Source: Escherichia phage pEC-M2929-1AR.1. Taken from it: a DNA stretch of 64,000 nucleotides. How positions within the stretch are numbered: the stretch's first letter is position 1; each line of letters begins with the position of its first letter. The notes beneath the pieces are model-generated. The model made no database searches. It was given only the letters and a program-made list of their open reading frames with translations, and was not told the DNA's origin. The DNA is taken from the sequence record OP177727.1; one strand, 5' to 3'. The position numbers and the translations under genes are program-made. Of the stretch, positions 281 to 24,141 are shown one piece after another.

Positions 281-356
281 TGGTCGTGGTAAACGGAGTC
301 GAACCGTTGTTTCTCGATTATCGGTCGAGTGTACTAACCATCTGTACGATACCACA
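281..356 (-). tRNA. tRNA, anticodon GAU (Ile-type); CCA encoded
   Basis: Hand-folded cloverleaf: acceptor 7 bp, D stem GTAC/GTAC, anticodon stem CTCGA/TCGAG with loop CCGATAA, T arm AACGG-TTCGACT-CCGTT; position 33 is C, which is unusual. Confidence 0.55.
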
Positions 357-361
357 ATAAT

Positions 362-450
362 TGGCAGCAAGGTGAGGAATCGAACCCCTTGATCTATGGT
401 TTGGAGCCATATTGAGTACCATACTCTTTTAAATCTACCCGGCTATGAGT
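362..450 (-). tRNA. tRNA-like element, possible degenerate tRNA (anticodon-like loop CCA)
   Basis: Good anticodon arm (TATGG-CTCCAAA-CCATA) and T loop TTCGATT with CCA end, but no acceptor or D stem could be paired by hand. Confidence 0.3.
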
Positions 451-502
451 TCCTTGAAGTGTCAATGTAACTTAATCATTACACCAGAAGGGAGGTATTT
501 AT

Positions 503-581
503 TGGAGGCGGGAGTTGGATTTGAACCAACGATCTCCAGCATATGAAACTGGCGAGGACGACCAGACTCCTCTATCCCGCA
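503..581 (-). tRNA. tRNA, anticodon CAU (Met, fMet or Ile2 type)
   Basis: Acceptor TGCGGGA/TCCCGCC with 1-72 mismatch, D stem GAGG/CCTC, anticodon arm CCAGT-TTCATAT-GCTGG, T arm GTTGG-TTCAAAT-CCAAC, CCA encoded. Confidence 0.6.
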
Positions 582-596
582 CAATCTGTAATAATT

Positions 597-672
597 TGGT
601 TGATAGTAAGAGAATCGAACTCTTCTCGCAATGCCTTATGAAAGCACTCGAAACGCCAGCTTCACACTATCA
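597..672 (-). tRNA. tRNA, probable anticodon CAU
   Basis: Acceptor TGATAGT/ACTATCA, T arm AAGAG-TTCGATT-CTCTT, anticodon loop TTCATAA; D arm not cleanly resolved by hand. Confidence 0.5.
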
Positions 673-764
673 ATGGCTAACCCTTTATAACCCGTCTTGG
701 CGTGGTATCCTTGATAGGACGGTGGATATCCGTTGCAAACCCTATGATATCTCTTAGATATGGT

Positions 765-844
765 AGCTAAGGTGAGACTCGAACTCACAATCCCCTGGGG
801 CAATACGTTCTAAGCGTATCGTGTATACCATTCCACCACTTAGC
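765..844 (-). tRNA. tRNA-Leu, anticodon UAG (type II, long variable arm)
   Basis: Acceptor GCTAAGT/CCTTAGC, anticodon arm ATACG-CTTAGAA-CGTAT, variable stem CCCC/GGGG, T arm GTGAG-TTCGAGT-CTCAC; CCA not encoded. Confidence 0.6.
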
Positions 845-922
845 CATAATAAGTACACCACTGTAAGAAGCCTCAATGTGCTATTGACAGTTAACCAAGT
901 CTACTCCTTGGATGGTGTTATT

Positions 923-997
923 TGGTGCAGAGAGATGGTAACGATCCATCCTTTCTACCTTTTCAGGGTAGCACTAATCCGTCTCAGCTATCTCTGC
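923..997 (-). tRNA. tRNA-Phe, anticodon GAA
   Basis: Acceptor GCAGAGA/TCTCTGC, anticodon arm CTACC-CTGAAAA-GGTAG, T stem GATGG/CCATC with atypical T loop ATCGTTA. Confidence 0.55.
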
Positions 998-1002
998 AAA
1001 TT

Positions 1003-1078
1003 TGGTCAGTGCGGCAGGACTCGAACCTGCGACCCGAAGCATCCAAAGCTCCCACGCTACCAACTGCGCTACGCACTG
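1003..1078 (-). tRNA. tRNA-Pro, anticodon UGG
   Basis: Acceptor CAGTGCG/CGCACTG, D stem GCGC/GCGT, anticodon arm GGAGC-TTTGGAT-GCTTC, T arm GCAGG-TTCGAGT-CCTGC, CCA encoded. Confidence 0.65.
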
Positions 1079-1085
1079 TAAATAT

Positions 1086-1160
1086 TGGCTGGAGATCTAG
1101 GAATCGAACCTAGTCATCACGACTTCAAAGGCCGTTGCCTTCCCACTAGGCTAATCTCCA
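1086..1160 (-). tRNA. tRNA-Gln, anticodon UUG
   Basis: Acceptor TGGAGAT/ATCTCCA, anticodon arm ACGGC-CTTTGAA-GTCGT, T arm CTAGG-TTCGATT-CCTAG, CCA encoded. Confidence 0.65.
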
Positions 1161-1259
1161 ATAAAACTAAAAATCACTTAAAAAGAACCGCTAGAGTTTG
1201 AAGGAGAAAACCATGAGCGAAAAGAGAAATTTTCTCTAGCGATTCCATTTAAATAATCT

Positions 1260-1333
1260 TGGAGCGAGTAACAGGACTTGAACCTGCACCTGGAGGGTGG
1301 AAACCTCATATGCTACCATTAACACTATACCCG
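1260..1333 (-). tRNA. tRNA-Gly, anticodon UCC
   Basis: Acceptor GCGGGTA/TACTCGC (one G-U), anticodon stem GAGG/CCTC with loop TTTCCAC, T arm GCAGG-TTCAAGT-CCTGT. Confidence 0.6.
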
Positions 1334-1389
1334 CTTAACAATATTACTCTAACATATTATTAGCCCCTTTGTCAAGAGGCTTTTGATAT

Positions 1390-1719
1390 TTATTTTAAAA
1401 TAGTAGATGCACCACGTCTGTTTAGATATGCAATAGTAAAATCCAAATCACCTATTTCTTCAGGTTCCCACTGACCTTCTAAACCATAACAAGAACAATG
1501 ATATGCGTGTACTTCATAAAACAAAGATGTTTTCATATCATAAAAATAAACGTGAGATTCACCTTCATAATATGCACAATCATAAGTGGCAGAAAGAATT
1601 ACAATGTTATCCTTATCTAACTCTACTTCATAATATCTTTCAACATCTTCAATATCATCAAAACCATCGAAAACATTGATATTAAAATATTTCTCTAACT
1701 CTTTTTCTGTCACATACAC
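1390..1719 (-). CDS. hypothetical protein (109 aa) embedded in tRNA cluster
   Basis: ORF track; AAGGAG RBS 5 nt upstream of ATG on minus strand; flanked by tRNA genes. Confidence 0.6.
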   Translation of the reverse strand: MYVTEKELEKYFNINVFDGFDDIEDVERYYEVELDKDNIVILSATYDCAYYEGESHVYFYDMKTSLFYEVHAYHCSCYGLEGQWEPEEIGDLDFTIAYLNRRGASTILK

Positions 1720-1736
1720 TCCTTTAGAGTTAAAAT

Positions 1737-1811
1737 TGGTGCTCCCACAAGGACTCGAACCCTGATAAGTTGCTTACAAGGCAACCGTAATAGCCGTTAT
1801 ACGATAGGAGC
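1737..1811 (-). tRNA. tRNA-Thr, anticodon UGU
   Basis: Acceptor GCTCCTA/TGGGAGC, anticodon arm GTTGC-CTTGTAA-GCAAC, T arm CAGGG-TTCGAGT-CCTTG, CCA encoded. Confidence 0.65.
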
Positions 1812-1890
1812 AAAATATTTGCTTGGTAGGATTTGATACCTACAATTCTAGAAAATTCTAGAGGTTTCTATTAACTCTACAAGCACTATT

Positions 1891-1975
1891 TGGCGATGGA
1901 TCAAGGATTTGAACCTTGCTAGAACTTTCGTTCACGGATTAACAGTCCGTCGCCCAACCACTAGGCCAATCCATC
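1891..1975 (-). tRNA. type II tRNA (long variable arm) with anticodon GUU (Asn-type anticodon on Ser/Leu/Tyr-type body)
   Basis: Acceptor GATGGAT/ATCCATC, anticodon arm ACGGA-CTGTTAA-TCCGT, variable arm stem GAAC/GTTC, T arm CAAGG-TTCAAAT-CCTTG. Confidence 0.5.
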
Positions 1976-1982
1976 TTTAATT

Positions 1983-2070
1983 TGGTGCAGGTAGTTGGAC
2001 TCGAACCAACGAAGCCCCGAAGGGCAGGAGATTTACAGTCTCCAGCAATTGCCGCTATGCGATACCTACG
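1983..2070 (-). tRNA. tRNA-Tyr, anticodon GUA (type II)
   Basis: Acceptor GTAGGTA/TACCTGC, anticodon arm GGAGA-CTGTAAA-TCTCC, long variable arm, T arm GTTGG-TTCGAGT-CCAAC. Confidence 0.65.
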
Positions 2071-2074
2071 TGTT

Positions 2075-2150
2075 TGGTACATCGTGAAGGATTCGAACCT
2101 TCGACCTTGGAGTTAAAAGCCCCTTGCTCTACCAACTAAGCTAACGATGT
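2075..2150 (-). tRNA. tRNA-Lys, anticodon UUU
   Basis: Acceptor ACATCGT/ACGATGT, D stem GCTT/GAGC, anticodon loop CTTTTAA, T arm GAAGG-TTCGAAT-CCTTC. Confidence 0.65.
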
Positions 2151-2284
2151 ATAAATTATCTTTAAAATAGCCAGTGTTTGCGGCACTTGACTATGAAGTA
2201 TTAGGGTATCGGTAAGATGGTGGAGGCCATCTGCCGAAAGTTTACTCTATTAAAGTAAGATTACAAGCTACATTAAAGATAACT

Positions 2285-2370
2285 TGGCGGTAGATGTAGG
2301 ACTTGAACCTACACGCCGTTTCCGACGACAGTTTAGCAAACTGTTGTGGCTACCATTTCACCAATCTACC
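2285..2370 (-). tRNA. tRNA-Ser, anticodon GCU (type II)
   Basis: Acceptor GGTAGAT/ATCTACC, anticodon arm ACAGT-TTGCTAA-ACTGT, long variable arm, T arm GTAGG-TTCAAGT-CCTAC. Confidence 0.65.
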
Positions 2371-2378
2371 GTTCTTAA

Positions 2379-2531
2379 TTATTCAAAACAACCGGAATCT
2401 TTTTGTTCTGCTTTTACCATACGAATATTTTTACCATCTTCAGATTGTTGAAGATTAGAATACTCATAAACAACTTTATTATCTACAATCTTAACTCCGG
2501 TAACAACCTGTCCAATAGTTTTATAATTCAT
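2379..2531 (-). CDS. small hypothetical protein (50 aa)
   Basis: Track ORF 2379-2579 trimmed to internal ATG at 2531 because the upstream part overlaps a tRNA; AGGAG RBS 4 nt upstream of that ATG. Confidence 0.45.
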   Translation of the reverse strand: MNYKTIGQVVTGVKIVDNKVVYEYSNLQQSEDGKNIRMVKAEQKDSGCFE

Positions 2532-2549
2532 AAAGCTCCTAGTTGAATT

Positions 2550-2639
2550 TGGAGGAAGATAATGGAGTCGAACCATCACCGTATCGCTACAATGGGCCAG
2601 GGTTCAAACCTGGTTGCGCACCGCTGCGCCCTACCTTCC
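2550..2639 (-). tRNA. tRNA-Ser, anticodon UGA (type II)
   Basis: Acceptor GGAAGGT/ATCTTCC, anticodon arm CCAGG-TTTGAAC-CCTGG, T arm GATGG-TTCGACT-CCATT, CCA encoded. Confidence 0.55.
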
Positions 2640-2702
2640 CGTTATCATACTTTAAATCTAACATAAAACTATCTTGTTTGTCAAGTAGTTTTTAAAACTT
2701 TT

Positions 2703-2784
2703 TGGTCGGGGTGACAGGATTCGAACCTGCATACTCCAATTACTCGGTTAACGCCTGATTAGAAGTCAGGTGAGATACACCCCG
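2703..2784 (-). tRNA. tRNA, identity unresolved (candidate anticodon loop CTTCTAA = UCU, Arg-type)
   Basis: Acceptor CGGGGTG/CACCCCG and T arm GCAGG-TTCGAAT-CCTGT are clear; the 47-nt interior could not be folded into a canonical D plus anticodon arm by hand. Confidence 0.4.
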
Positions 2785-2856
2785 TTTTCACAGTAACTAT
2801 AACAAAAAACTAAGTGAATGTCAAGATATTTTTACTAAAATTATTATTTAAATTGA

Positions 2857-2962
2857 AGCCTAGTTATGGAATCGAACCATATTTCGTATTTAGTTAGACA
2901 AAGCGGTCTAACATATTTTTCAGGCTTTGATGGCCTCGGAATTACCAAATACCCTACTAGGC
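2857..2962 (-). ncRNA. oversized tRNA-like RNA (about 106 nt)
   Basis: Perfect 7-bp acceptor-like pairing (GCCTAGT/ACTAGGC) and canonical T arm (TATGG-TTCGATT-CCATA) enclose a 74-nt interior containing hairpin GTTAGAC-CGCTTTG-GTCTAAC. Confidence 0.35.
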
Positions 2963-2964
2963 GT

Positions 2965-3050
2965 TGGTGCAAGTGGAGGGATTCGAACCCTCAATCATTT
3001 AAGCGTTGCGTTTTAAGCACAATGTGTATCACCAATTCCACCACACTTGC
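2965..3050 (-). tRNA. tRNA-Leu, anticodon UAA (type II)
   Basis: Acceptor GCAAGTG/CACTTGC, anticodon arm TTGTG-CTTAAAA-CGCAA, long variable arm, T arm GAGGG-TTCGAAT-CCCTC. Confidence 0.6.
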
Positions 3051-3081
3051 ATATAGGAGATGCATAGCATCTCCTTTTAAA

Positions 3082-3157
3082 TGGTGGTTCCCCAGGGTTA
3101 CAATCCCTGCCCTCGACACTTATGAGGTGTGCGCTCTCGTCAGTGAGCTATGGAACC
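3082..3157 (-). tRNA. tRNA, anticodon CAU (Met-type)
   Basis: Acceptor GGTTCCA/GGGAACC, D arm GCTC-ACTGACGA-GAGC, anticodon loop CTCATAA, T stem CAGGG/CCCTG with atypical loop ATTGTAA. Confidence 0.5.
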
Positions 3158-3164
3158 TTGAATA

Positions 3165-3431
3165 TTAAGCATACTGGGTCATTTCACCAGCTTCGCGTTT
3201 CTCCAGAAGAACTGTAATCAAAGCAATAGCTGCTTCTTCTTCGTGCGGAAGCCCCATTTCATCCAGAAGAGCAAGGAAGTCAATTACCAAACTTTCTGTT
3301 TTAAGGCTAACGCTACCATTTTCGTTTTCAGTAAGAACTGATTCAGGTTCAAAAATAAAGATTGCTCCACCTTTATTATCAATCAATACGTGCTTCTCAA
3401 TCAATTCTTTACCATAAGTACGTTCTGTCAT
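3165..3431 (-). CDS. hypothetical protein (88 aa)
   Basis: ORF track; AAAAGGAGAAAACT directly upstream of ATG on minus strand. Confidence 0.6.
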   Translation of the reverse strand: MTERTYGKELIEKHVLIDNKGGAIFIFEPESVLTENENGSVSLKTESLVIDFLALLDEMGLPHEEEAAIALITVLLEKREAGEMTQYA

Positions 3432-3481
3432 AGTTTTCTCCTTTTTGTTTAACTTGTGCTTATCTTAGCAAATAACTAGCT

Positions 3482-3598
3482 ATGTTGTCAACTAGTTTTT
3501 ACAATATTTTTTCTTGATCTGTAACCTAGTGTATAACCGCATACAAAAGATACAATAGCAATAAAAACAGATAAGCCAAAAATAATTTCTGTAGACAT
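3482..3598 (-). CDS. small hydrophobic protein (about 38 aa, predicted membrane peptide)
   Basis: Hand-translated MSTEIIFGLSVFIAIVSFVCGYTLGYRSRKNIVKTS; AAGGAA RBS upstream; below the ORF-track size cutoff. Confidence 0.35.
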
Positions 3599-3611
3599 AC
3601 TGTTTCCTTAA

Positions 3612-3833
3612 TTATGTGAAATCTAATTCCTCCTCTGGTGTTGTGTAATTTAGAAGAAGATCAGTTACACTTTGATGTTGATAAACCCTTTCGGGACTGT
3701 CATCGAATGCCAAACTTGTACAAATCGAGCATAGATCCGACTCTTGAATATTACCATTCCTGTCTCTACGGGAATGATTAGTCAAGTGTCTGTTACAGGC
3801 TCGGCAACGAAAATAAAAATTATGTTGTTTCAT
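3612..3833 (-). CDS. small Cys-rich (zinc-ribbon-like) protein
   Basis: ORF track; CRAC and CSIC pairs; AAGGA RBS upstream of ATG. Confidence 0.5.
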   Translation of the reverse strand: MKQHNFYFRCRACNRHLTNHSRRDRNGNIQESDLCSICTSLAFDDSPERVYQHQSVTDLLLNYTTPEEELDFT

Positions 3834-3904
3834 AAATCCTTCGTGAAGCCCATCCAGGGCAGTTGTAGGCTCTCCTTACCTTAATCTTATCACGAAGTTT
3901 TTAT

Positions 3905-5638
3905 TTAGTCAACCTGGATGGTTCCCATAGTACGAAGAACCTCTACATCAACACGGTTGCGGATATCAGTGAATGTTTCATCACGTCCTTCTACTTGTGG
4001 TGTAATAACCTTACCATTCTTGAAGATAACTTGTAACTCATTGTCTTCATCCTGGATATCTTTAAAAGAAAGATTATCTACAAGAGAAAGATTACCATTG
4101 GTATCCTTAACAACCTTAATAAAACCTTTTGCAGAGCGTTTACCAGGATCAGTTTTAGGCTCCTTACTTACCAAAATTTCGTGTTCACCGATGATACTAC
4201 CTGTTGCTTTAACAGCAAAACCAAAAGTATCTCGTGTATTGAACTGATAAGTATAACTACCAACACCAAATACAATATTGGAAGCTGCAAAACCTTTCTT
4301 CTTCAGTCGGCGTAAGATCTCGTGTTCTCGTTCAACAGTAATAGAATCACCATAAATCATACCGATATGCTGATCAAGAACCTTGTAACCTTTTCGGTTG
4401 ATAGTACCACCAAACACTTCCCAAAGGATTTGAATAGAACCTACTGCTTCACAATAAGGAATCTCATAAGTTTCATCAATGCAATCAGCAACACTGCAAT
4501 CCTGAAGAACATTGTAATACTTATTAACATCAGCCAAATGAACTACTTCAGTGGCTGTCGCAATACCATTATTTAAGAGGTCTTCATAGTTATCAAAAGA
4601 TTCAACATTGTATCCTGCAACAACTTTAACCGGATCTCCTGAATCTGGACGAATAACAAGACGACCATTTCGTGACATAATGGAATCTTTCAATTCTACC
4701 AGAATGCGAGTCAATACAGCCCAATAGTCATAAGAGTCTGCTACATATGAACAAAAACCTTCTGGAACAATTTCTTCGATATAACGACGAAGAAACTCTT
4801 TTTCTGCTACATAACGAAGCCCATCTACATCATCTTTAAGATGTGGAAAATGTTTCTTCAGATCTTCAACAATAGCTCCAATGTTAGTCGTTGCTACTGA
4901 ATGTTCTGTTGCCGGAATCGAACCTGCAACAAACTGATCATAATCAATACCATAATAATCATGCACAGTTTCAATAGCCAGAATATTATCTGTTCCTGTG
5001 AACGATGCCAAGTGAGCGATACCACTCTTATAACCATCTTCGATATTACTTAAACCACGTAGGCTAAAGTCATGACACTGGAAGTTAACGTGATCAATAT
5101 TATCACACGTTGCCATCGCATATGCCATAGCGATACGCTTATACTGAAAAGCTGCTGTAGCGTTAGTCATTGTCTTCCAAGTTTCATCTGACAACAGTGT
5201 TTCCACATAGTTAGTTAACCAAAAGAATTTTTCTAAAGTATTATGCACAGTAAACACAGGAACACCAATAGGACACAAAACACCTTCTGGCAGAGATCGA
5301 ACTTCCAGCGGAAGATAACCTAAATCGTGCAATTCTCCCCAACATTCAGCAGAAGGAGCAGAAGCACCTAATGCATTTTTAGACATACGATAAAATTTAT
5401 TTACTGCTGCACTACGAGACATTTTAAAGAAGCTATCCCACATAGTTACAAGAGCATCAGTGACTGCTCGACGAATACCTAAAACAATCACACCACGTGC
5501 TTCACGATCTGCATAGTGTGCAAAGTTTTTATCATTACGAGGAGTTAAATTAGAGAAAATAAGTTTTGTATTTTGGTTGTACATCTGCTTGTGACCAGGT
5601 TTGTACCAATCAGTAGCAAAAGGTGCAAAAATATTCAT
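3905..5638 (-). CDS. nadV: nicotinamide phosphoribosyltransferase family protein (NadV/NAMPT-like; candidate Namat of a NARP1-type module)
   Basis: 577 aa; NAMPT-family blocks DWYK, LPLEVRSLPEG, FTVHNT, HDFSLRG, SFTGTDN, RPDSGDP recognised by eye against known NAMPT sequences. Confidence 0.85.
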   Translation of the reverse strand: MNIFAPFATDWYKPGHKQMYNQNTKLIFSNLTPRNDKNFAHYADREARGVIVLGIRRAVTDALVTMWDSFFKMSRSAAVNKFYRMSKNALGASAPSAECWGELHDLGYLPLEVRSLPEGVLCPIGVPVFTVHNTLEKFFWLTNYVETLLSDETWKTMTNATAAFQYKRIAMAYAMATCDNIDHVNFQCHDFSLRGLSNIEDGYKSGIAHLASFTGTDNILAIETVHDYYGIDYDQFVAGSIPATEHSVATTNIGAIVEDLKKHFPHLKDDVDGLRYVAEKEFLRRYIEEIVPEGFCSYVADSYDYWAVLTRILVELKDSIMSRNGRLVIRPDSGDPVKVVAGYNVESFDNYEDLLNNGIATATEVVHLADVNKYYNVLQDCSVADCIDETYEIPYCEAVGSIQILWEVFGGTINRKGYKVLDQHIGMIYGDSITVEREHEILRRLKKKGFAASNIVFGVGSYTYQFNTRDTFGFAVKATGSIIGEHEILVSKEPKTDPGKRSAKGFIKVVKDTNGNLSLVDNLSFKDIQDEDNELQVIFKNGKVITPQVEGRDETFTDIRNRVDVEVLRTMGTIQVD

Positions 5639-5709
5639 AGTTATGTCTCCTTGTTTGTTAATGTGGGAGTATCTTACTAAGCATACTCCCTATTGTCAAC
5701 ACTTATTAT

Positions 5710-6603
5710 TTAAAAATTCCACACATATGGAGATACAATTTGTTGTTGCAAATCTGACTGATTCTTAACAAGAACACCGGAATCTTCTTGGATGTTATCT
5801 TCCCACACATTAAGAGAGTGAATACAGTCAAAGTGCTCACTTAACTCTTTAAGACCTTTAGAAAAGATACCGTGTGTAACATATAGCTCAATCTTACCTG
5901 CGTTACGAGCACGTAGCACTTTAGCCAATTCGATAAAAGTTCTACCACCATCACAGATATCATCTACGATCATCAGGTTACGCTTATTGAAATCCTGTAC
6001 AGAAATGTCTGTACGAACAATAGCACCTGTTGCGGTATCTCTAACCTTCTCTGCACAGAACACATCTAAAGACATTTTCTTAGATAATTTAAATATTTTC
6101 TTAAGAGCACCACCATCAGGGCTAACAAGAGCAAAATTCTCCATACGTAACTTCCACTTTAAAGTTTCGTAAGCAATCTCTTCTTGAGGTATTACACAGA
6201 GTCTGTCAAACACTGCTGGAGTAACATCACTATGCGGATCAGCAACGATAACACGTGAGAAATTTAATGAATTAATTATAGAAGCAAATGCTTTAACTCC
6301 AAATGCTTCCCCAGGCTCACACACTCTGTCTTGTCGTGCATACGGCACATACAACATGAGTAAATCAACACAATATGGTTTATGATATAGCATATTGTCC
6401 AATGCATTCTTAGTCATAACCAAAGTCATCAAGTCTTTAGCAGATCTTACTTCTAAAGTGAGTAAGATTCTGTCTGTAGTATGATTGAAAACTGATAGAT
6501 TCGTATCTAACTGAACATGTTGTTCTCCACCAGAGAATGTAAACACTTTAACGTCTACATCAGTAACATAACAGTCAACACCATGCAGAATACTAACTTT
6601 CAT
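5710..6603 (-). CDS. prs: ribose-phosphate pyrophosphokinase family protein (Prs-like; candidate Adps of a NARP1-type module)
   Basis: 297 aa; PRPP-synthetase blocks VPYARQDR, LVSPDGG, PRPP-binding loop MIVDDICDGGRT, VTHGIFS. Confidence 0.8.
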   Translation of the reverse strand: MKVSILHGVDCYVTDVDVKVFTFSGGEQHVQLDTNLSVFNHTTDRILLTLEVRSAKDLMTLVMTKNALDNMLYHKPYCVDLLMLYVPYARQDRVCEPGEAFGVKAFASIINSLNFSRVIVADPHSDVTPAVFDRLCVIPQEEIAYETLKWKLRMENFALVSPDGGALKKIFKLSKKMSLDVFCAEKVRDTATGAIVRTDISVQDFNKRNLMIVDDICDGGRTFIELAKVLRARNAGKIELYVTHGIFSKGLKELSEHFDCIHSLNVWEDNIQEDSGVLVKNQSDLQQQIVSPYVWNF

Positions 6604-7012
6604 TCTTTATCTCCTTAGTTGAGTTAGGACTTTATGTTCTCTACTCTACATACAGATAGATCTAAAGTCAATAGATATTTATTATTTAATTAATAATAAA
6701 ATTAATAAATAATCTATTGTTAGTATAGAGCATGTATGTTAGTATTATATACATAACATAGTGCTATATGTAGACTACTCAGTTGTCTGTTAGATCATGT
6801 ATCACAAGATTAGATAACACCCCCTCGCTGCGCTCGGCGTTTTTCGGGGGTTAGGGTAGCATACTTTTTTGCGTTTGTCAACACCTTTTTAGATTATTTT
6901 TAAGTACAACCTGAACCTCCTAAAAACGATTGTAACGAGTTTTACTGTGAGGTAAGGTGATTGCATATCTTAGGTGCTATTAGCTCGTTACAGAGCCATA
7001 CAGGAGGGAATA

Positions 7013-7381
7013 ATGAGGGTCACACGTTACGTTAGAAGTGAAACAATAGATGGAGGCATAATGTATGCTTTCTACGATGATAAAACTTTTTGTTCTGCAT
7101 TCTATGAAGAAGACTTGTCTACTGAGTGGCAACAAATCATCTTCTTACTTGACATTTTGAAAAGAAGAGATAACCTTGAAGGTATTGAGTGGACAGTGGG
7201 AAGCAAAGTTATCGTTGCAGGTTTAAGCAAACATGAGTTGCTTGACTTAGACTGTAAACTTTGTAATTATCAATTCTCAAAACGTTTACCATTAGAAAGA
7301 CAGTTAGGAGTTGAGATTCATGTTGACTTGGGCGATGGAGTATCCTATACTCTCAACAATCATAGTGCTGACATTAATTAG
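7013..7381 (+). CDS. hypothetical protein; first gene of long plus-strand array
   Basis: Track ORF 6974-7381 trimmed to ATG at 7013 preceded by CAGGAGGGAATA. Confidence 0.5.
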   Translation: MRVTRYVRSETIDGGIMYAFYDDKTFCSAFYEEDLSTEWQQIIFLLDILKRRDNLEGIEWTVGSKVIVAGLSKHELLDLDCKLCNYQFSKRLPLERQLGVEIHVDLGDGVSYTLNNHSADIN

Positions 7382-7447
7382 TGGGATCACAAAGTGCGTC
7401 ACAAGCATTTGCGATTGTTTAACACATTTTAAACAAAGGAAAAATAA

Positions 7448-7645
7448 ATGAATCAAACTATGCAAACAATCTATAGAGTAATCCTTGGTGAGTTCCATGT
7501 TGTTAAGTCAACATTGAATTATGAAGAAGCTAAAGAGAATTTCTTGCTATGGGTTGAAGCATTTTCTGAAGTTGAAAAGGTAAGTTACAATTGTGTAACT
7601 TTAACTGCTGATCACGTACCTGTATTGGAGTTTATTAAGAAATGA
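7448..7645 (+). CDS. hypothetical protein (65 aa)
   Basis: ORF track; AAAGGAAAAATAA upstream of ATG. Confidence 0.5.
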   Translation: MNQTMQTIYRVILGEFHVVKSTLNYEEAKENFLLWVEAFSEVEKVSYNCVTLTADHVPVLEFIKK

Positions 7646-7881
7646 AAAAAGAAATTTTAACTGATGTAACATATTCTTGTATTAGCAAAGGCGGTTTATA
7701 TCGTGTAGTTGGCTTTCCTAAACCAGCGGGTGTATCTAAAGTATTTGATCCTGTTGTGATCTACGAAGATGTAAGGACTGGTCAACAGTATTGGCGATTC
7801 CAGCAAGATTTCTTACACCGCATGGAGGTTGTTGATGGCGAAAACACCGAAGAAGCGATCCGTAACAAAGCGCGCATCTAA
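7642..7881 (+). CDS. hypothetical protein (79 aa)
   Basis: ORF track; ATGA start/stop overlap with upstream gene. Confidence 0.5.
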   Translation: MKKEILTDVTYSCISKGGLYRVVGFPKPAGVSKVFDPVVIYEDVRTGQQYWRFQQDFLHRMEVVDGENTEEAIRNKARI

Positions 7882-8170
7882 AGATGGGGCGGCAAAAGCC
7901 GCTCCTAAGAAACAAAAATTTGACACAGAGGCTTTTGTCTTTGATACTCCAATAGAAAAGATAGAAGAAGCTCTTGCTAAATTTGAAGCACGTGATGCAG
8001 ATCCTATGGCAGATCCTTTCACAGAAGATGAATTGTACTGGTTTGGCTGGTGGGTTTTGAATCTACCAGAAGCTAAAAAACGAGGAATGAAGTCAGTTCC
8101 TATTTGCGCAAAAGAGTCGGCTGTGTTAGGTTTATACGAGAAGCCTAAAAGAAGGAGCAAAAAGAAATGA
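7835..8170 (+). CDS. hypothetical basic protein (Lys/Arg-rich termini)
   Basis: Track ORF trimmed to ATG at 7835 with GGAGG 6 nt upstream; overlaps previous gene in another frame. Confidence 0.45.
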   Translation: MAKTPKKRSVTKRASKDGAAKAAPKKQKFDTEAFVFDTPIEKIEEALAKFEARDADPMADPFTEDELYWFGWWVLNLPEAKKRGMKSVPICAKESAVLGLYEKPKRRSKKK

Positions 8171-8445
8171 GAAAAACTTATCTGAAGTGTTTGTCTGTTG
8201 TGCAAAATGAATGGTATTCAGGTTTGCTGACAGCAGGTAAGAAATATGAAGTGCTCAATAAACCAGGGGCAAGATTTTCATTAATTAAGAACGACAAAGG
8301 CACTGAAATGCTTATTTCAGTTGCAGATTCTATGTATGGTACTTTTGAGTTGGTCTATGAATATGTACCAATTATTCTTGAATACAGCGGTACAAACAAA
8401 CCTTACACAGCTTTAGATGTGATCAACAACAAAAGGAATAAGTAA
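8167..8445 (+). CDS. hypothetical protein (92 aa)
   Basis: ORF track; overlapping start with upstream stop. Confidence 0.5.
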   Translation: MRKTYLKCLSVVQNEWYSGLLTAGKKYEVLNKPGARFSLIKNDKGTEMLISVADSMYGTFELVYEYVPIILEYSGTNKPYTALDVINNKRNK

Positions 8446-8636
8446 TGTTCCTTATTTATTCAGGTAAAGCCAAATACATGCAAGGTGTGAAGCGTGTAGA
8501 AGTAGTAGATACTGTAACTATAGGAAAATCCTTTATTCTTTATTTGTTTTATATCAATGGAGAAAGATTTGCTGTTTCTAAGAAGTTGGTAGATAATGGT
8601 AAAACTTGGAAAGAAGAGAAACAGGAAGGGGGTTGA
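8445..8636 (+). CDS. hypothetical protein (63 aa)
   Basis: ORF track; ATG overlaps upstream stop (TAATG). Confidence 0.45.
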   Translation: MFLIYSGKAKYMQGVKRVEVVDTVTIGKSFILYLFYINGERFAVSKKLVDNGKTWKEEKQEGG

Positions 8637-8637
8637 T

Positions 8638-8980
8638 AGTGGCTAAAATTCTTTGGTTAGATGATTTAAGAGATCCTAAAGATTATGGTTATGAGGATGC
8701 TATTTGGTTAAAATCTTTTGAGGATTGGTTATCTTTTGTTTCAGATGAAGATAATTTCAATAATATCTCAGAGATACACTTCGATAATGATCTTGGAGAA
8801 GATCAGGAAGGATATCATGCATTCTTAGACGTAGAATGTATGTTGTATGCGGGTGAATGGGATGCTCTTAAGACTATCTATGTCCATACATCAAACCCTT
8901 CTGCTGCTGGTAAATATATGTTAGCTAAGGAAAATTTTATTTCATCCTATGGTGTTGAAATTAAACGTGTTAACTATTAA
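8638..8980 (+). CDS. hypothetical protein
   Basis: Track ORF 8606-8980; probable GTG start at 8638 after GGAAGGGGG. Confidence 0.45.
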
Positions 8981-8989
8981 GGAGGTGTT

Positions 8990-9136
8990 ATGCTTTATGT
9001 TATTTGGATAGATGAAGGGGATGGGTTTTATATATACAAACACACTAACCATTGGCCCGATGTAGAAAAAGCACTTGCAACTTTTGAAGATTGCTTTTAC
9101 GATATACATACAGACGAAGAGTATGAAGAAAATTGA
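8990..9136 (+). CDS. small hypothetical protein (48 aa)
   Basis: Hand-translated MLYVIWIDEGDGFYIYKHTNHWPDVEKALATFEDCFYDIHTDEEYEEN; AAGGAGGTG RBS; below ORF-track cutoff. Confidence 0.45.
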   Translation: MLYVIWIDEGDGFYIYKHTNHWPDVEKALATFEDCFYDIHTDEEYEEN

Positions 9137-9495
9137 TGTGCGCTACTAATCAACATGATATTTGTTACCAACCTCTTACTTGGATTGGTGAGGATCACTA
9201 TGCTCAACGTGTTATAGTATGCGCTGCGAATAAGTATATTCTCAACAATGGCGAAGAGTTAATTATTCCTTGTGTTAGGCATGCAAATCCTGTACTATCT
9301 GCACAACTTAATGTTTTAAAAGATGCAGGATTGATTGATAAACTGTTTTGCTTACCTGATAATCAAGGGTTTATTGATCAGTATTATAACTGGTGGAGTC
9401 GCAAAGATGCTTATATCATTGCAGATAATGCCAAACAAATTAATTATGAAAGAAATGGTCACGACAGTGAACTATTCAGCGAGGGATTATACTAA
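9133..9495 (+). CDS. hypothetical protein (120 aa)
   Basis: ORF track; overlapping stop/start with neighbours. Confidence 0.5.
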   Translation: MMCATNQHDICYQPLTWIGEDHYAQRVIVCAANKYILNNGEELIIPCVRHANPVLSAQLNVLKDAGLIDKLFCLPDNQGFIDQYYNWWSRKDAYIIADNAKQINYERNGHDSELFSEGLY

Positions 9496-10046
9496 TGTTT
9501 ATTACAAGTGATTTGCATTTTATGCACAAACGTATCCGAGAGTTTGCTCCTGAATATCGCCCGTGGGAAGATATGGAGCATATGACAGAAGCACTGATCG
9601 AAGCATGGAATAAATGTGCCACAACACCAGGAGTAAAGATGTACCATCTTGGGGACTTCTGTTTCGGGACTGAAGAAGATACCCGTAAAATTGCTTCACG
9701 TCTTCAAGGTGATATTACTTACTGTGTTGGGAACCATGATTACAGCAAACACCGAGAAGTGCTTGCAGAATATGGTGAGGTTGTGTATTATGACGAAGTG
9801 AAATATCAGAAACTGTTCTTCGTCTTAAGTCATTATCCTATGGCTTCCTGGAATAAACAAGGACATGGATCAATCATGCTACACGGGCACTCTCACGGAT
9901 CATTCCCTGATCATTTGTATGGGAAAATGTTGGATGTTGGTTGGGACGCACACGGAAAAATCTTGCATTTTGACGAAATCATCTCTATTATGGATAAACG
10001 TGATATTGTTGTTGTAGACCATCATAAGATAATCAAAGGAGATTAA
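9495..10046 (+). CDS. calcineurin-like metallophosphoesterase (candidate RNA/DNA 3'-phosphatase)
   Basis: Motifs DLHF, GDFCFG, GNHD, HGHSHG typical of the metallophosphoesterase superfamily. Confidence 0.7.
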   Translation: MFITSDLHFMHKRIREFAPEYRPWEDMEHMTEALIEAWNKCATTPGVKMYHLGDFCFGTEEDTRKIASRLQGDITYCVGNHDYSKHREVLAEYGEVVYYDEVKYQKLFFVLSHYPMASWNKQGHGSIMLHGHSHGSFPDHLYGKMLDVGWDAHGKILHFDEIISIMDKRDIVVVDHHKIIKGD

Positions 10047-10047
10047 G

Positions 10048-10980
10048 GTGGCTAAGTTCAATTGTGATGACCTGATTGCAAAAGGTTTAGTGCATAAAAA
10101 AGAAGTTAAATCTGGAGAGTATGCTGGTCTTGCTGTACTTAAATACAAAAACAATGTATTCTGGGATAACTTGTGGAACGTTGACAAACGACTTCTAGAT
10201 TGTCGTGGGTTGGTTGTTGACTCAGAAGATAATGTTGTTATTTGGCCTTTTACTAAAATCTTTAATCGTTTTGAGAATGGTACAGATCTTCCAGCAGACC
10301 AGCTTGTAGATGCTGTCCGTAAAGTAAACGGTTTTATGGCATCTGTAGGTGTGTACAAAGGGCAACTTATTGTATCAACAACAGGGAGCCTAGAGTCAGA
10401 TTTTGCAACTCTTGCCAAGAACCATATTGTTTCCGAGTGTGATGACATAGAATATTTCATTAAGTGGACAGAAAGTGCAAAAGCAACTTTCCTTTTTGAA
10501 ATCTGTGATCCTTCTGATCCACATATTGTTGAAGAAGAACCAGGTGCATACTTAATTGGAGCAAGAATTCAAAATGATGATGGGACAAGTTTCATGCTAC
10601 CTGAAGGTGTGCTCGATGGGATTGCATCTATTACAAAATTTAAACGTCCTGAAGTTTATCCGATGATTAAATTTTCAGATGTTGTTGAAATGTCTAAACA
10701 TTGTAAGCACGAAGGGTTTGTTGTTCGTGAAACAAACTATCCGTTTAACTTGCTGTTAAAGATTAAGTCACCATACTATCTTGCTAAGAAATTCCTTATG
10801 CGTGGTGGCAATAAGAAGTGGGATATGATTTGGGACAACCCAAAAAATGCTAAACAAATTGTTGACGAAGAATATTATACTTTGCTAGAATGGCTTCGAA
10901 ACAACTTTACTAAGACTCAATGGGCTGCTTTAGATCCACAAGAGCGACGTAAAGAAATAGAAAACTTCTTTGGAGGCTAA
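10048..10980 (+). CDS. ATP-dependent RNA ligase-like nucleotidyltransferase
   Basis: Covalent nucleotidyltransferase motifs: KVNG (motif I), FLFEICDP (III), EGFVVRE (IV), LLLKIKSP (V). Confidence 0.6.
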   Translation: MAKFNCDDLIAKGLVHKKEVKSGEYAGLAVLKYKNNVFWDNLWNVDKRLLDCRGLVVDSEDNVVIWPFTKIFNRFENGTDLPADQLVDAVRKVNGFMASVGVYKGQLIVSTTGSLESDFATLAKNHIVSECDDIEYFIKWTESAKATFLFEICDPSDPHIVEEEPGAYLIGARIQNDDGTSFMLPEGVLDGIASITKFKRPEVYPMIKFSDVVEMSKHCKHEGFVVRETNYPFNLLLKIKSPYYLAKKFLMRGGNKKWDMIWDNPKNAKQIVDEEYYTLLEWLRNNFTKTQWAALDPQERRKEIENFFGG

Positions 10981-11385
10981 ATGAAACAACTTATCATTTT
11001 ACGTGGTGTTTCAGGTGCAGGTAAATCTACAGTAGCAGAAATTATTTCTGAAGGTTATTGGCCTATCTGTGAGGCAGATCAATATCATTACACAGAAAGT
11101 GGTGTTTACGATTGGAAGCCAGAGAATGTAGGTAAAGCACACGCATGGTGTCAGAGTATTGTTCGTGATGCTATGGCATCTAATATTAAAAAGATTATTG
11201 TCTCTAACACTTCAACCACAGAGAAAGAACTTAAACCTTATTTTACTCTTGCTGAAGAGTTTGGTTATCAAGTTATCTCCTTAGTTGTTGAAAATAGGCA
11301 CGGTAACGACTCAATTCATGAGGTTCCACAACATACTCGTGATCAGCAAGAGAAACGTCTTCGCAGTTCACTTAAGTTACAATAA
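10981..11385 (+). CDS. P-loop kinase (polynucleotide 5'-kinase-like)
   Basis: Walker A GVSGAGKST near N-terminus, about 134 aa; directly follows the ligase with ATGA overlap. Confidence 0.55.
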   Translation: MKQLIILRGVSGAGKSTVAEIISEGYWPICEADQYHYTESGVYDWKPENVGKAHAWCQSIVRDAMASNIKKIIVSNTSTTEKELKPYFTLAEEFGYQVISLVVENRHGNDSIHEVPQHTRDQQEKRLRSSLKLQ

Positions 11386-11394
11386 GGAGAGTGT

Positions 11395-11715
11395 ATGGAA
11401 ATTTATTCTGGTGAAGGTAAGTATTTTACAGTAGTCGATAATGGTGAAATTATTATTTATCGCTACGGAAGTGAGTGGAGGAACGAGACAGGAGACGGCT
11501 ATATCTTATCTTTGCTCCGTTTGATTAATGATCTTACGGAAGAACTTGAAGAAACAAAACGTTCATATGATGATCAAGTAGATTCATTAGAAAACATTAT
11601 TTCAGATCTAAATGAAGAAGTTTGTTATTTGAGTGGACAAGTTTCAGAGTTAACACTGGAATGTGAAGATTTAGGTGATGTTATTGCAGATTTAAATGAA
11701 CGTCTTAAGGATTAA
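11395..11715 (+). CDS. hypothetical acidic protein with predicted coiled coil
   Basis: ORF track; GGAGAG RBS upstream. Confidence 0.5.
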   Translation: MEIYSGEGKYFTVVDNGEIIIYRYGSEWRNETGDGYILSLLRLINDLTEELEETKRSYDDQVDSLENIISDLNEEVCYLSGQVSELTLECEDLGDVIADLNERLKD

Positions 11716-17784: not shown

Positions 17785-18186
17785 ATGACTACAGCCCTGG
17801 ATATTCAAATTGATGGTGATCACTACAAACGTATGCGTATGCAACCTTTGGAACTTGCATATCTAATTGGTGCAACTCCTTGTTTCACTAAGTTAGCTAA
17901 GTATGCTTGTCGAAACAAAGGTGATCGTGTGATCAACCTAAACAAAGCGATTCACGTTATTCATATTGAAAAAGAATTGAGTGATAAATATTACAATATG
18001 TTGTATGAAGCCTACCCTAACTTAAAAAATCCTGTAAAAATTGAGTTAGCTAATCAGCTAATTGATTTATACACAGACGATGATCTTGTTCGTAAGGCTT
18101 TAAAAGCAATGTATAAAGGTAAGTATATTGAAGCAGCAGATGCTATTGAACAATTGAAGGAGAGTGTAGATGGCTTCTCACGGTAA
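17785..18186 (+). CDS. hypothetical protein (133 aa)
   Basis: ORF track; GGAGG RBS after terminator. Confidence 0.55.
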   Translation: MTTALDIQIDGDHYKRMRMQPLELAYLIGATPCFTKLAKYACRNKGDRVINLNKAIHVIHIEKELSDKYYNMLYEAYPNLKNPVKIELANQLIDLYTDDDLVRKALKAMYKGKYIEAADAIEQLKESVDGFSR

Positions 18187-18929: not shown

Positions 18930-18974
18930 TAAAGTATTATCGCTCCCACAAATGGGAGCGTTAGAGGAGAAAAT

Positions 18975-20112: not shown

Positions 20113-20121
20113 GGAGAAATA

Positions 20122-21862: not shown

Positions 21863-21873
21863 TAGGAGAGGAA

Positions 21874-24135: not shown

Positions 24136-24141
24136 TGAAAC

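What the first reader, a model, noticed from the sequence alone, without database searches (positions are those of the whole stretch)
3905..6603. Adjacent NAMPT-family and PRPP-synthetase-family genes: candidate phage NAD+ reconstitution module
A 577-aa NAMPT-family protein and a 297-aa Prs-family protein are encoded back to back on the minus strand, just downstream of the tRNA cluster and apart from the plus-strand nucleotide-metabolism array. This pairing is the architecture reported for phage NARP1 modules, where the Prs-like enzyme makes ADP-ribose pyrophosphate and the NAMPT-like enzyme condenses it with nicotinamide, rebuilding NAD+ depleted by host defence NADases. It could instead be a conventional PRPP-to-NMN salvage pair. 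The NAMPT homolog is unusually long, implying insertions.
Basis: partly seen in the sequence, partly recalled or inferred. Interest (0 to 1): 0.75.

Follow-up and report, generated by a model that had tools for sequence, protein, structure and literature searches.

The report
Phage NAD+ rebuilding gene pair (NARP1)
Two neighbouring genes of a phi92-like E. coli phage encode the already described two-enzyme pathway that rebuilds NAD+ from the fragments left by bacterial NAD+-destroying defences; it is a real but previously catalogued example.

Summary
ORFs of 297 aa (5710-6603, minus) and 577 aa (3905-5638, minus) lie 71 bp apart, Prs-like gene first. The window is a phi92-like E. coli myovirus (Justusliebigvirus), 99.3% identical here to phages EC.P2 and PHB05.

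The NARP1 reading is supported. The Prs-like protein behaves like validated Adps enzymes and not like housekeeping Prs in reciprocal profile tests, and it keeps the catalytic lysine. The NAMPT-like protein is closest, by sequence and by predicted fold, to the crystal structure of SPbetaL1 Namat. It carries the published Namat adenine-clamp motif (GSYTYQFNTRD); the nearest true Nampt (H. ducreyi NadV) and a KVP40-type phage Nampt lack its aromatic residues.

The extra length comes from two insertions. Both sites are also expanded in the in-vivo-validated Bas63 Namat (593 aa), so the length is not unusual for this clade.

It is not new. The supplementary tables of Osterman et al. already list the 98-99% identical phi92, PHB05 and JohannJBalmer proteins as a Prs/Adps homologue with Namat nearby and an 'Adps-associated' Namat. 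No Macro (Adpp) or RyR (RyDEP) accessory gene is present. No biochemical or genetic test of a phi92-type pair was found.

The parts
5710..6603 (-). adps: Prs-family ADP-ribose pyrophosphokinase homologue (297 aa), first gene of the pair
   Evidence: ORF. TIGR01251 scores 116 bits and every Prs equivalog model falls far below its cutoff. This matches validated Adps from Bas63, SPbetaL1 and FADO (96-138 bits) and contrasts with E. coli Prs (423-533 bits). A home-made Adps HMM gives 271 bits, against 132 for E. coli Prs. It differs from phi92 gp107 at 4 of 297 residues; gp107 is listed by Osterman et al. with 'Namat within 10 genes: Yes'.
6046..6048 (-). Adps Lys186, in AEKVRD, equivalent to SPbetaL1 Adps K162 (the K162A mutant is inactive)
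   Evidence: Alignment A1; identity of SPbetaL1 residue 162 checked; K162A listed as the inactive mutant in the supplement of 10.1101/2024.02.11.579819.
5935..5964 (-). Adps loop DDICDGGRTF (residues 214-223), the counterpart of the E. coli Prs loop DDMIDTGGTL
   Evidence: Alignment A1. The Thr after the third Asp of E. coli Prs is Gly in the window and in Bas63, and Phe/Tyr in SPbetaL1/FADO. That this is the loop binding the ribose 5-phosphate in Prs rests on my own knowledge, and a link to accepting ADPR is inference.
3905..5638 (-). namat: NAMPT-family nicotinamide ADP-ribose transferase homologue (577 aa), second gene
   Evidence: ORF. Best PDB sequence match is 9W5X/9W5W, the SPbetaL1 Namat (400 bits, against 340 for H. 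ducreyi NadV and 175 for human NAMPT). Best fold match is 9W5X (TM 0.93 on the target). 100% identical to the EC.P2 protein. It differs from phi92 gp108 at 9 of 577 residues; gp108 is listed as 'Adps-associated'.
4229..4261 (-). Namat selectivity-clamp helix motif GSYTYQFNTRD (residues 460-470)
   Evidence: [quoted passage not shown] SPbetaL1 has GSFTYQYNTRD and Bas63 GSYTYQYMTRD; the KVP40-type Nampt has GGGLLQQLDRD and H. ducreyi NadV has GAQTYQRNTRD. Position 3 is aromatic in 23 of 23 relatives and position 7 in 20 of 23.
5492..5545 (-). Namat selectivity-clamp loop region TPRNDKNFAHYADREARG (residues 32-49)
   Evidence: Alignment A2. Lys37 aligns with SPbetaL1 Arg40. The next residue is Asn38, where Bas63 has Trp. 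Phe39 is invariant in 23 relatives. Which residue stacks on adenine could not be tested.
4901..4903 (-). Namat His246, in ATEHS, aligned with the invariant catalytic histidine of the Nampt/Namat family
   Evidence: Invariant column in A2 and A3. The catalytic-core residues D10, Y12, F191, R194, D217, R330, D332, G430 and D431 are also all invariant, matching the SPbetaL1 contacts listed in PMC12774641.
4811..4876 (-). Namat insertion 1 (residues 255-276 relative to SPbetaL1)
   Evidence: Lies between and within predicted helices 246-263 and 271-290, pLDDT 85-88. The segment has constant length in 23 relatives. Bas63 has a shorter insertion at the same site.
4442..4591 (-). Namat insertion 2 (residues 350-399 relative to SPbetaL1)
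   Evidence: The region 345-399 is predicted to contain four short strands and two short helices, with pLDDT mostly 83-93. Length and sequence vary: the segment spans 55-101 residues in relatives. Bas63 has a 77-residue insertion at the same site.
6643..6671 (-). Promoter-like site TTGACT-17-TAGAGT upstream of adps; AAGGAG ribosome-binding site at 6611-6616
   Evidence: Consensus scan and sequence. These are pattern matches only. The phi92 record annotates an AGGAG ribosome-binding site at the same place.
5671..5699 (-). Promoter-like site TTGACA-17-TAAGAT in the adps-namat spacer; AAGGAG ribosome-binding site at 5647-5652
   Evidence: It is one of six exact TTGAC-N18/19-TAAGAT sites in the window, against 0.16 expected. 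It overlaps the inverted repeat GGGAGTAT...ATACTCCC.
3612..3833 (-). Conserved 73-aa CxxC...CxxC ORF just after namat (context only; not shown to belong to the pathway)
   Evidence: PHROG 37033, E 1.8e-36. Found in 134 phage records, nearly all Stephanstirmvirinae by name, at 74-100% identity and mostly unannotated. Same position after namat in Klebsiella phage phi1_175008.

Best explanation
The pair is a minimal two-gene NARP1 module (NAD+ reconstitution pathway 1) of a phi92-like E. coli phage. When a host defence such as SIR2-HerA, DSR, type I Thoeris or SEFIR cleaves NAD+ into ADP-ribose and nicotinamide, the first enzyme (Adps, a diverged Prs) uses ATP to pyrophosphorylate ADP-ribose to ADPR-PP. 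The second enzyme (Namat, a diverged Nampt) then displaces the pyrophosphate with nicotinamide and regenerates NAD+ directly, without NMN and without host salvage enzymes. Shown here: the genes, their order, clade-level identity with validated Adps and Namat, conservation of catalytic and adenine-clamp residues, and purifying selection. Inferred: the chemistry and the anti-defence phenotype in this lineage.
For: (1) Adps side. TIGR01251 gives 116 bits for the window protein, and all Prs equivalog models fall far below their cutoffs. This matches validated Adps of Bas63, SPbetaL1 and FADO (138, 106, 96.5 bits) and contrasts with E. coli Prs (423 and 533 bits). An HMM built from 13 diverse Namat-linked phage Adps, excluding phi92-like and Bas63 sequences, scores the window protein 271 bits. 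Leave-one-out members score 149-278 bits and E. coli Prs 132 bits. The Lys equivalent to SPbetaL1 K162 is present. (2) Namat side. The best PDB match by sequence and by predicted fold (TM 0.93) is 9W5X/9W5W, the Namat crystal structure. The clamp-helix motif GSYTYQFNTRD fits the published Namat signature. The closest genuine Nampt (HdNadV, GAQTYQRNTRD) and a KVP40-type Nampt (GGGLLQQLDRD) lack its aromatic residues. All catalytic-core residues are conserved. In the spread sample of tblastn hits, scores fall into a set above 300 bits that includes Bas63 and FADO, and a set of about 100-190 bits that includes the KVP40-type Nampt. (3) Context. Gene order Adps then Namat, as in Bas63 genes 79-80, SPbetaL1 190-191 and FADO. 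(4) The locus is conserved at 95% nucleotide identity or more in 55 phage records, and synonymous codon changes outnumber nonsynonymous ones against phi92 (21:4 and 34:9). (5) Osterman et al. list the phi92, PHB05 and JohannJBalmer orthologues as Prs/Adps homologues with Namat nearby and as 'Adps-associated' Namat. In that work 97% of Adps-clade genes had a Namat neighbour, while bacterial prs genes only very rarely did.
Against: No enzyme assay or deletion phenotype exists for any phi92-type pair; two searches of the held literature found none. Pairwise identity to the biochemically characterised SPbetaL1 proteins is modest (27-35% for Adps, 39-45% for Namat, depending on the alignment method). 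By pairwise BLAST the window Adps is only slightly closer to the Gram-positive Adps (71-86 bits) than to E. coli Prs (69 bits), so the separation rests on profiles and published phylogeny. In the clamp loop the residue after the conserved Lys is Asn38, not an aromatic as in Bas63 (Trp), so the third adenine-stacking contact is uncertain. No residues that determine Adps substrate choice have been published, so ADPR versus ribose-5-phosphate preference cannot be read from the sequence. The supplementary Prs table lists all Prs/Adps homologues and has no explicit clade column, so clade membership is implied by the Namat-neighbour flag rather than stated.
Confidence: 0.9

Rival explanations
1. It is a conventional salvage pair. 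The Prs-like enzyme makes PRPP from ribose-5-phosphate, the NAMPT-like enzyme makes NMN from PRPP and nicotinamide, and host NadR/PncC finish the route to NAD+.
For: Both proteins pass general family thresholds: TIGR01251 at 116 against a cutoff of 113, and PRK09198 at 463 against 405. Every GenBank record annotates them this way. SPbetaL1 Namat retains about half of human Nampt's NMN-forming activity in vitro (PMC12774641). H. ducreyi NadV, a genuine Nampt, is nearly as similar to the window protein (340 bits) as Namat is (400 bits).
Against: The Prs-like protein scores like validated Adps and about 300 bits below a real Prs on Prs models, and the reverse holds on an Adps model. SPbetaL1 Adps gave no product in the Prs-type assay but made ADPR-PP from ADPR and ATP, and Bas63 still overcame SIR2-HerA in a pncC nadR double-deletion host. 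The window Namat has the aromatic clamp residues that HdNadV and KVP40-type Nampt lack. E. coli already has Prs, and the published NMN-based phage route (NARP2) pairs Nampt with an Nmnat rather than with a Prs-like gene. The phi92 orthologue is labelled 'Adps-associated', not 'Nmnat-associated'.
Confidence: 0.05
2. The chemistry is NARP1, but its main role in this phage is metabolic rather than anti-defence. It would keep NAD+ up during infection, for example by recycling nicotinamide and ADP-ribose-type products of the phage's own SIR2-family enzyme or of host turnover.
For: The same window encodes a SIR2-family protein (41305-42117, PF02146 at 80.9 bits). AntiDefenseFinder authors report NARP1 homologues in non-mobile bacterial regions and suggest housekeeping roles. 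The pair sits among metabolic and RNA-repair genes.
Against: For Bas63 and FADO, a deletion phenotype was reported on hosts carrying NAD+-depleting defences (SIR2-HerA and DSR2 respectively). ADPR-PP was detected only when the defence system was present. Sirtuin deacylation yields O-acyl-ADPR rather than free ADPR (own knowledge), which is not a shown Adps substrate. Nothing links the SIR2 gene, about 35 kb away, to this pair.
Confidence: 0.05

Closest known systems
NARP1 of Escherichia phage Bas63 (JohannRWettstein) genes 79-80, validated in vivo by Osterman et al.
   Same: E. coli myovirus host range. Same order, Adps (293 aa) then Namat (593 aa), with a short spacer. Long-form Namat with insertions at the same two sites. 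Same DDICDGGRTF loop in Adps. Clamp-helix motif GSYTYQYMTRD against GSYTYQFNTRD here.
   Different: Different phage family (Felixounavirus against Justusliebigvirus). Only 36% (Adps) and 39% (Namat) identity by BLASTP. Insertion 2 is 77 residues in Bas63 and 50 here. The clamp loop has Lys-Trp-Phe in Bas63 and Lys-Asn-Phe here.
NARP1 of Bacillus phage SPbetaL1 (Adps gene 190, Namat gene 191; Namat crystal structures 9W5X and 9W5W), validated in vitro
   Same: Catalytic core, clamp-helix motif and catalytic Lys of Adps are conserved. It is the best structural match to the predicted model.
   Different: Short-form Namat (491 aa) without the two insertions. Arg40 is the clamp-loop stacking residue, where the window has Lys37. 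The Adps loop is DDLSSFGGTF. Identity is 27-35% (Adps) and 39-45% (Namat), depending on the alignment method.
phi92 gp107/gp108 and the PHB05, EC.P2 and JohannJBalmer orthologues
   Same: The same genes. 97.7-99.3% nucleotide identity across the locus; 4 of 297 and 9 of 577 amino-acid differences from phi92. The phi92, PHB05 and JohannJBalmer proteins (not EC.P2) are already listed in the NARP1 paper's tables.
   Different: Nothing of substance. GenBank still labels them Prs and Nampt, or 'hypothetical protein'.
NARP2-type phage Nampt (KVP40 type) and bacterial NadV (H. ducreyi, 9KE8)
   Same: Same fold and catalytic core, and the same nicotinamide-attachment chemistry.
   Different: They use PRPP to make NMN. 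They lack the aromatic clamp residues (GGGLLQQLDRD and GAQTYQRNTRD). The KVP40-like locus examined has no Prs-like gene next to its Nampt.
NARP1-AP (Adps-Adpp-Namat, Vibrio phage Gary) and RyDEP-containing NARP1 loci (phage DyoEdafos)
   Same: The core Adps and Namat pair.
   Different: No Macro-domain phosphatase and no RyR-domain glycosidase was found in any ORF scanned within about 5 kb. By inference from those papers, this module should not by itself handle ADPR-1''-phosphate from aRES or cyclic ADPR signals.

Membership tests
NARP1 (Adps + Namat) | A Prs-family gene and a Nampt-family gene adjacent on the same strand in a phage genome | tested here: met
   ORFs 5710-6603 and 3905-5638 on the minus strand, 71 bp apart. 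Phage identity.
NARP1: Adps | Belongs to the phage Adps clade rather than to housekeeping Prs | tested here: met
   Reciprocal profile test. Adps HMM: 271 bits (window) against 132 (E. coli Prs). TIGR01251: 116 against 423, with validated Adps at 96-138. PHROG 619 scores 306 bits. I built no tree with many bacterial Prs sequences; the published tree used a 99%-identical representative.
NARP1: Adps | Catalytic lysine (SPbetaL1 K162) present | tested here: met
   Window K186 aligns with SPbetaL1 K162.
NARP1: Adps | Pyrophosphorylates ADP-ribose to ADPR-PP and does not make PRPP | not testable with these tools
   Needs an enzyme assay. No published sequence or structural determinants of ADPR choice were found.
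NARP1: Namat | [quoted passage not shown] | tested here: met
   GSYTYQFNTRD at residues 460-470. The aromatics are absent from HdNadV and KVP40-type Nampt.
NARP1: Namat | Clamp loop supplies a stacking residue (third residue Arg, or Lys/Tyr followed by a stacking fourth residue) | tested here: inconclusive
   The third residue is Lys37 as in Bas63, but the fourth is Asn38 (variable: L/N/Y/H in relatives). Invariant Phe39 follows. The contact is made across the dimer and could not be modelled here.
NARP1: Namat | Nampt-like catalytic core (residues equivalent to D13, Y15, F189, R192, D215, catalytic His, R306, D308) | tested here: met
   Window D10, Y12, F191, R194, D217, H246, R330 and D332 are invariant in A2.
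NARP1: Namat | Prefers ADPR-PP over PRPP and forms NAD+ directly | not testable with these tools
   Needs an enzyme assay.
NARP1 | Protects the phage from NAD+-depleting defence systems | not testable with these tools
   Needs phage deletion and plaque assays. No report for phi92-like phages was found.
NARP1-AP (with Adpp phosphatase) | A Macro-domain (Poa1p-like) gene within the operon | tested here: not met
   No Macro domain in any ORF scanned from 1390 to 11715, and none annotated in PHB05.
NARP2 (Nampt + Nmnat) | PRPP-type Nampt without adenine clamp, paired with an NMN adenylyltransferase | tested here: not met
   The clamp motif is present. The phi92 orthologue is labelled 'Adps-associated' rather than 'Nmnat-associated'. 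No Nmnat is annotated in the PHB05 stretches examined, which do not cover the whole genome.
Housekeeping Prs (ribose-phosphate diphosphokinase) | Reaches the curated cutoff of an NCBIfam Prs equivalog or PRK01259-type model | tested here: not met
   Best is 96.8 bits against cutoffs of 296-297; E. coli Prs scores 533. Only the broad TIGR01251 subfamily model is passed, at 116 against 113.

The most novel reading that the evidence does not exclude
The two insertions that distinguish long-form Namat (a helical hairpin at residues 255-276 and a small, length-variable, beta-rich subdomain at 350-399) might not be neutral decoration. They could be a functional add-on of Gram-negative phage Namats. 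Possibilities include docking Adps to hand over the hydrolysis-prone ADPR-PP, or a fast-evolving surface that escapes a host-encoded inhibitor. Together with the Lys-Asn-Phe clamp loop, they could also shift donor specificity.
Probability: 0.1. Interest if true: 0.4.

Novelty: already known. Interest (0 to 1): 0.12.

Why it matters
NARP1 is a general phage counter-measure against the many bacterial defences that kill infection by destroying NAD+. Recognising it correctly matters for predicting which defence-carrying E. coli strains a phi92-like phage can still infect; several close relatives were isolated on clinical, ESBL-producing or multidrug-resistant E. coli. Nearly all database records still label these genes 'ribose-phosphate pyrophosphokinase' and 'nicotinamide phosphoribosyltransferase', or 'hypothetical protein'. 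The practical value here is re-annotation, not discovery. This module lacks the Adpp phosphatase, so by inference from the aRES preprint the phage should remain sensitive to aRES-type depletion.

Tried and rejected
(1) Pairwise BLASTP alone does not separate the window Adps from E. coli Prs well: 69 bits, against 71-86 bits for the Gram-positive Adps. I therefore used profiles.

(2) NCBIfam cannot separate Namat from Nampt. PRK09198 is passed by the window protein, three validated Namats and a KVP40-type Nampt alike.

(3) Overall similarity to PDB entries is not decisive on its own, because H. ducreyi NadV, a true Nampt, scores 340 bits against 400 for Namat. The clamp motif was needed to separate them.

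(4) A PDB search with the N-terminal 80 residues, to compare clamp loops, found nothing.

(5) I looked for accessory NARP1 genes (Macro/Adpp, RyR/RyDEP) among the neighbouring ORFs and found none.

(6) I asked whether the conserved 73-aa zinc-ribbon-like ORF after namat is a NARP1 accessory. It is confined almost entirely to Stephanstirmvirinae, so it looks like lineage synteny rather than pathway linkage.

(7) Searches for experiments on phi92-like phages and NAD+ depletion found none, and no Adps structure paper was found.

(8) I considered predicting the Adps structure. I rejected it as not decisive, because no determinants of ADPR versus ribose-5-phosphate choice are known.

(9) The monomer AlphaFold2 model cannot show the clamp loop, which acts across the dimer, so the stacking residue stays unresolved.
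Full report
**Observation.**
- The 297-aa protein matches Pfam Pribosyltran/Pribosyl_synth, NCBIfam TIGR01251 (116 bits, cutoff 113) and PHROG 619 (306 bits).
- The 577-aa protein matches Pfam NAPRTase, NCBIfam PRK09198 (463 bits, cutoff 405) and PHROG 448 (629 bits).
- Sixteen tRNA genes lie at 281-3157 on the same strand. In the direction of transcription the order is Prs-like, NAMPT-like, a 73-aa ORF, an 88-aa ORF, then the tRNAs. The pair is therefore upstream of the tRNA cluster, not downstream.
- A 370-bp intergenic region separates the pair from the divergent plus-strand array that begins at 6974.

**Source.** The 3.5-kb locus is 99.3% identical to Escherichia phages EC.P2 and PHB05 and 97.7% identical to phi92 (genus Justusliebigvirus, subfamily Stephanstirmvirinae). 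In all, 55 phage records carry it at 95% identity or more. The NAMPT-like protein is 100% identical to that of EC.P2. Against phi92 the two genes show 21 synonymous to 4 nonsynonymous and 34 synonymous to 9 nonsynonymous codon differences, which points to purifying selection.

**What is already published.**
- Osterman et al. (bioRxiv 10.1101/2024.02.11.579819) defined NARP1 with Bas63 genes 79-80, the SPbetaL1 proteins and a FADO deletion. Adps pyrophosphorylates ADP-ribose to ADPR-PP, and Namat joins it to nicotinamide to give NAD+. Bas63 still overcame SIR2-HerA in a pncC nadR double-deletion host.
- Their Supplementary Table 1 lists phi92 FR775895_00103, PHB05 MF805809_00103 and JohannJBalmer MZ501084_00232 among Prs/Adps homologues, with 'Namat within 10 genes: Yes'. 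Supplementary Table 2 lists the matching NAMPT-like proteins as 'Adps-associated'.
- These proteins differ from the window proteins at only 4 and 9 residues (phi92). The module has therefore already been catalogued, though not tested experimentally in this lineage.

**Independent test of the Prs-like protein.**
- On NCBIfam Prs models the window protein behaves like the three validated Adps and unlike a real Prs. TIGR01251 gives 116 bits for the window protein and 138, 106 and 96.5 bits for Bas63, SPbetaL1 and FADO, against 423 for E. coli Prs.
- The best stricter model gives 97 bits for the window protein and 533 for E. coli Prs.
- I built an HMM from 13 diverse phage Adps taken from the published table and fetched loci, leaving out phi92-like and Bas63 sequences. 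It scores the window protein 271 bits. Leave-one-out members score 149-278 bits and E. coli Prs 132 bits.
- The lysine whose K162A mutation inactivates SPbetaL1 Adps aligns with window K186.
- The loop that reads DDMIDTGGTL in E. coli Prs reads DDICDGGRTF in both the window and Bas63. Linking that change to acceptance of ADP-ribose is inference.
- Pairwise BLAST alone barely separates Gram-positive Adps (71-86 bits) from E. coli Prs (69 bits), so the case rests on profiles and the published phylogeny.

**Independent test of the NAMPT-like protein.**
- The best PDB sequence matches are 9W5X and 9W5W (400 bits), which are the SPbetaL1 Namat crystal structures. Next comes H. ducreyi NadV (9KE8, 340 bits) and then human NAMPT (175 bits).
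- An AlphaFold2 model built with 22 homologues (mean pLDDT 86.6, pTM 0.88) also matches 9W5X best (TM 0.93 on the target).
- A true Nampt (HdNadV) is nearly as similar overall, so the decisive test is the published selectivity clamp (PMC12774641). [quoted passage not shown]
- The motif compares as follows:

| Protein | Clamp-helix motif |
|---|---|
| Window protein (residues 460-470) | GSYTYQFNTRD |
| SPbetaL1 Namat | GSFTYQYNTRD |
| Bas63 Namat | GSYTYQYMTRD |
| H. ducreyi NadV | GAQTYQRNTRD |
| KVP40-type phage Nampt | GGGLLQQLDRD |

- Among 23 long-form relatives, position 3 is always Tyr or Phe, and position 7 is Tyr or Phe in 20.
- All catalytic-core residues described for SPbetaL1 Namat are conserved.
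- The clamp loop is less clear. Lys37 aligns with SPbetaL1 Arg40, as in Bas63, but the next residue is Asn38 rather than Bas63's Trp. Invariant Phe39 follows. This contact is made across the dimer and could not be modelled.

**The 'unusual length'.**
- Relative to SPbetaL1 Namat, the window protein has insertions at residues 255-276 and 350-399, small ones at 42-46 and 546-551, and a short C-terminal extension.
- In the model, insertion 1 lies within a pair of predicted helices (246-263 and 271-290). Insertion 2 forms a small subdomain of four short strands and two short helices, with pLDDT mostly 83-93.
- Both sites are also expanded in Bas63 Namat (593 aa; 13 and 77 residues). They are also expanded in the 22 aligned relatives, which were drawn from over 100 homologues of 555-596 aa. 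The insertion-1 segment has constant length in these, while the insertion-2 segment varies from 55 to 101 residues.
- The length is therefore typical of Namats from Gram-negative phages, including one validated in vivo. The role of the insertions is unknown.

**Context.**
- A promoter-like site (TTGACT-17-TAGAGT, 6671-6643) and an AAGGAG ribosome-binding site precede adps.
- A second promoter-like site (TTGACA-17-TAAGAT, 5699-5671) and another AAGGAG precede namat.
- No Macro-domain (Adpp) or RyR-domain (RyDEP) protein is encoded nearby. This is therefore the minimal two-gene NARP1, not the extended forms described in 2026 preprints.
- The arrangement adps, namat, 73-aa ORF, small ORF, tRNAs is kept in a more distant member of the subfamily, Klebsiella phage phi1_175008.

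**Verdict.** The conventional PRPP-to-NMN reading is unlikely (about 0.05). The finding is already known: the orthologues are in the founding paper's tables. Remaining unknowns are the untested biochemistry in this lineage, the role of the Namat insertions, and the identity of the clamp-loop stacking residue. Interest is low.

Noticed in passing
window 41305-42117 (+): A 270-aa phage-encoded SIR2-family protein (PF02146, 80.9 bits; N-terminal GAGLSADSGIRTFR motif), annotated 'Sir2 (NAD-dependent deacetylase)' in PHB05. This is an NAD+-consuming enzyme family in the same genome as an NAD+ rebuilding pathway. Its role is unknown.
   Followed up: partly
window 3462-3491, 3884-3912, 5671-5699 (all -); 26814-26842 (+); 56366-56394, 60430-60458 (-): The exact motif TTGAC-N18/19-TAAGAT occurs 6 times, against 0.16 expected by chance. 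Three copies sit immediately upstream of namat, the 73-aa ORF and the 88-aa ORF. This is probably a class of phage promoters with a TAAGAT -10 box. The copy before namat overlaps an 8-bp inverted repeat, GGGAGTAT-N10-ATACTCCC.
   Followed up: partly
window 8606-11385 (+): An RNA-repair-like cluster next to a 16-tRNA array. It comprises a cREC_REC 'cyclic-phosphate processing receiver' domain protein (8606-8980), a calcineurin-like phosphoesterase (9495-10046, weak Pfam match below the curated cutoff), a T4 Rnl1-type RNA ligase (10048-10980) and an AAA_33 kinase-like P-loop protein (10981-11385). It is plausibly a counter to host anticodon nucleases.
   Followed up: partly
window 3612-3833 (-): A 73-aa ORF with CxxC...CxxC cysteines (PHROG 37033), conserved at 74-100% identity in 134 phage records, nearly all Stephanstirmvirinae. 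Most records, including phi92 and PHB05, leave it unannotated. It is probably a real, overlooked gene.
   Followed up: partly
Supplementary Table 2 of 10.1101/2024.02.11.579819: Pectobacterium phages CB7, phiTE, DU_PP_I and DU_PP_IV: Their Namat is split into two ORFs (for example _00250 and _00252) with another gene between them, and the break falls at the insertion-1 site. This suggests a mobile intervening element, such as an intron or homing endonuclease, at that position.
   Followed up: no
Shigella phage Ag3 FJ373894_00125; PHROG 12872: An ORF that reads as an Adps-Namat fusion, and a 547-column PHROG profile that matches Adps in its first 222 columns and Namat in the rest. Either natural fusions of the two NARP1 enzymes exist or these are annotation or frameshift artefacts.
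   Followed up: no
PDB 9KE8/9KEO (H. ducreyi NadV): The classical NMN-forming NadV of H. ducreyi is much closer to phage Namats (340 bits to the window protein) than to human or Xanthomonas Nampt, yet it lacks the aromatic clamp residues. It may be a Namat-clade enzyme that lost, or never gained, adenine recognition.
   Followed up: partly
window about 18000-30000 and 31000-36000 (+), by correspondence to PHB05: The close relative PHB05 annotates, in the matching regions, a dTDP-rhamnose-type sugar-nucleotide gene set, NrdAB, thymidylate synthase and thymidine kinase. It also annotates an HslV-like peptidase, PhoH, a 190-aa 'histidyl tRNA synthetase' fragment, a DNA invertase and a DprA-like protein. 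The AntiDefenseFinder paper also reports the anti-TIR gene Atd1 in Justusliebigvirus; I did not locate it here.
   Followed up: no
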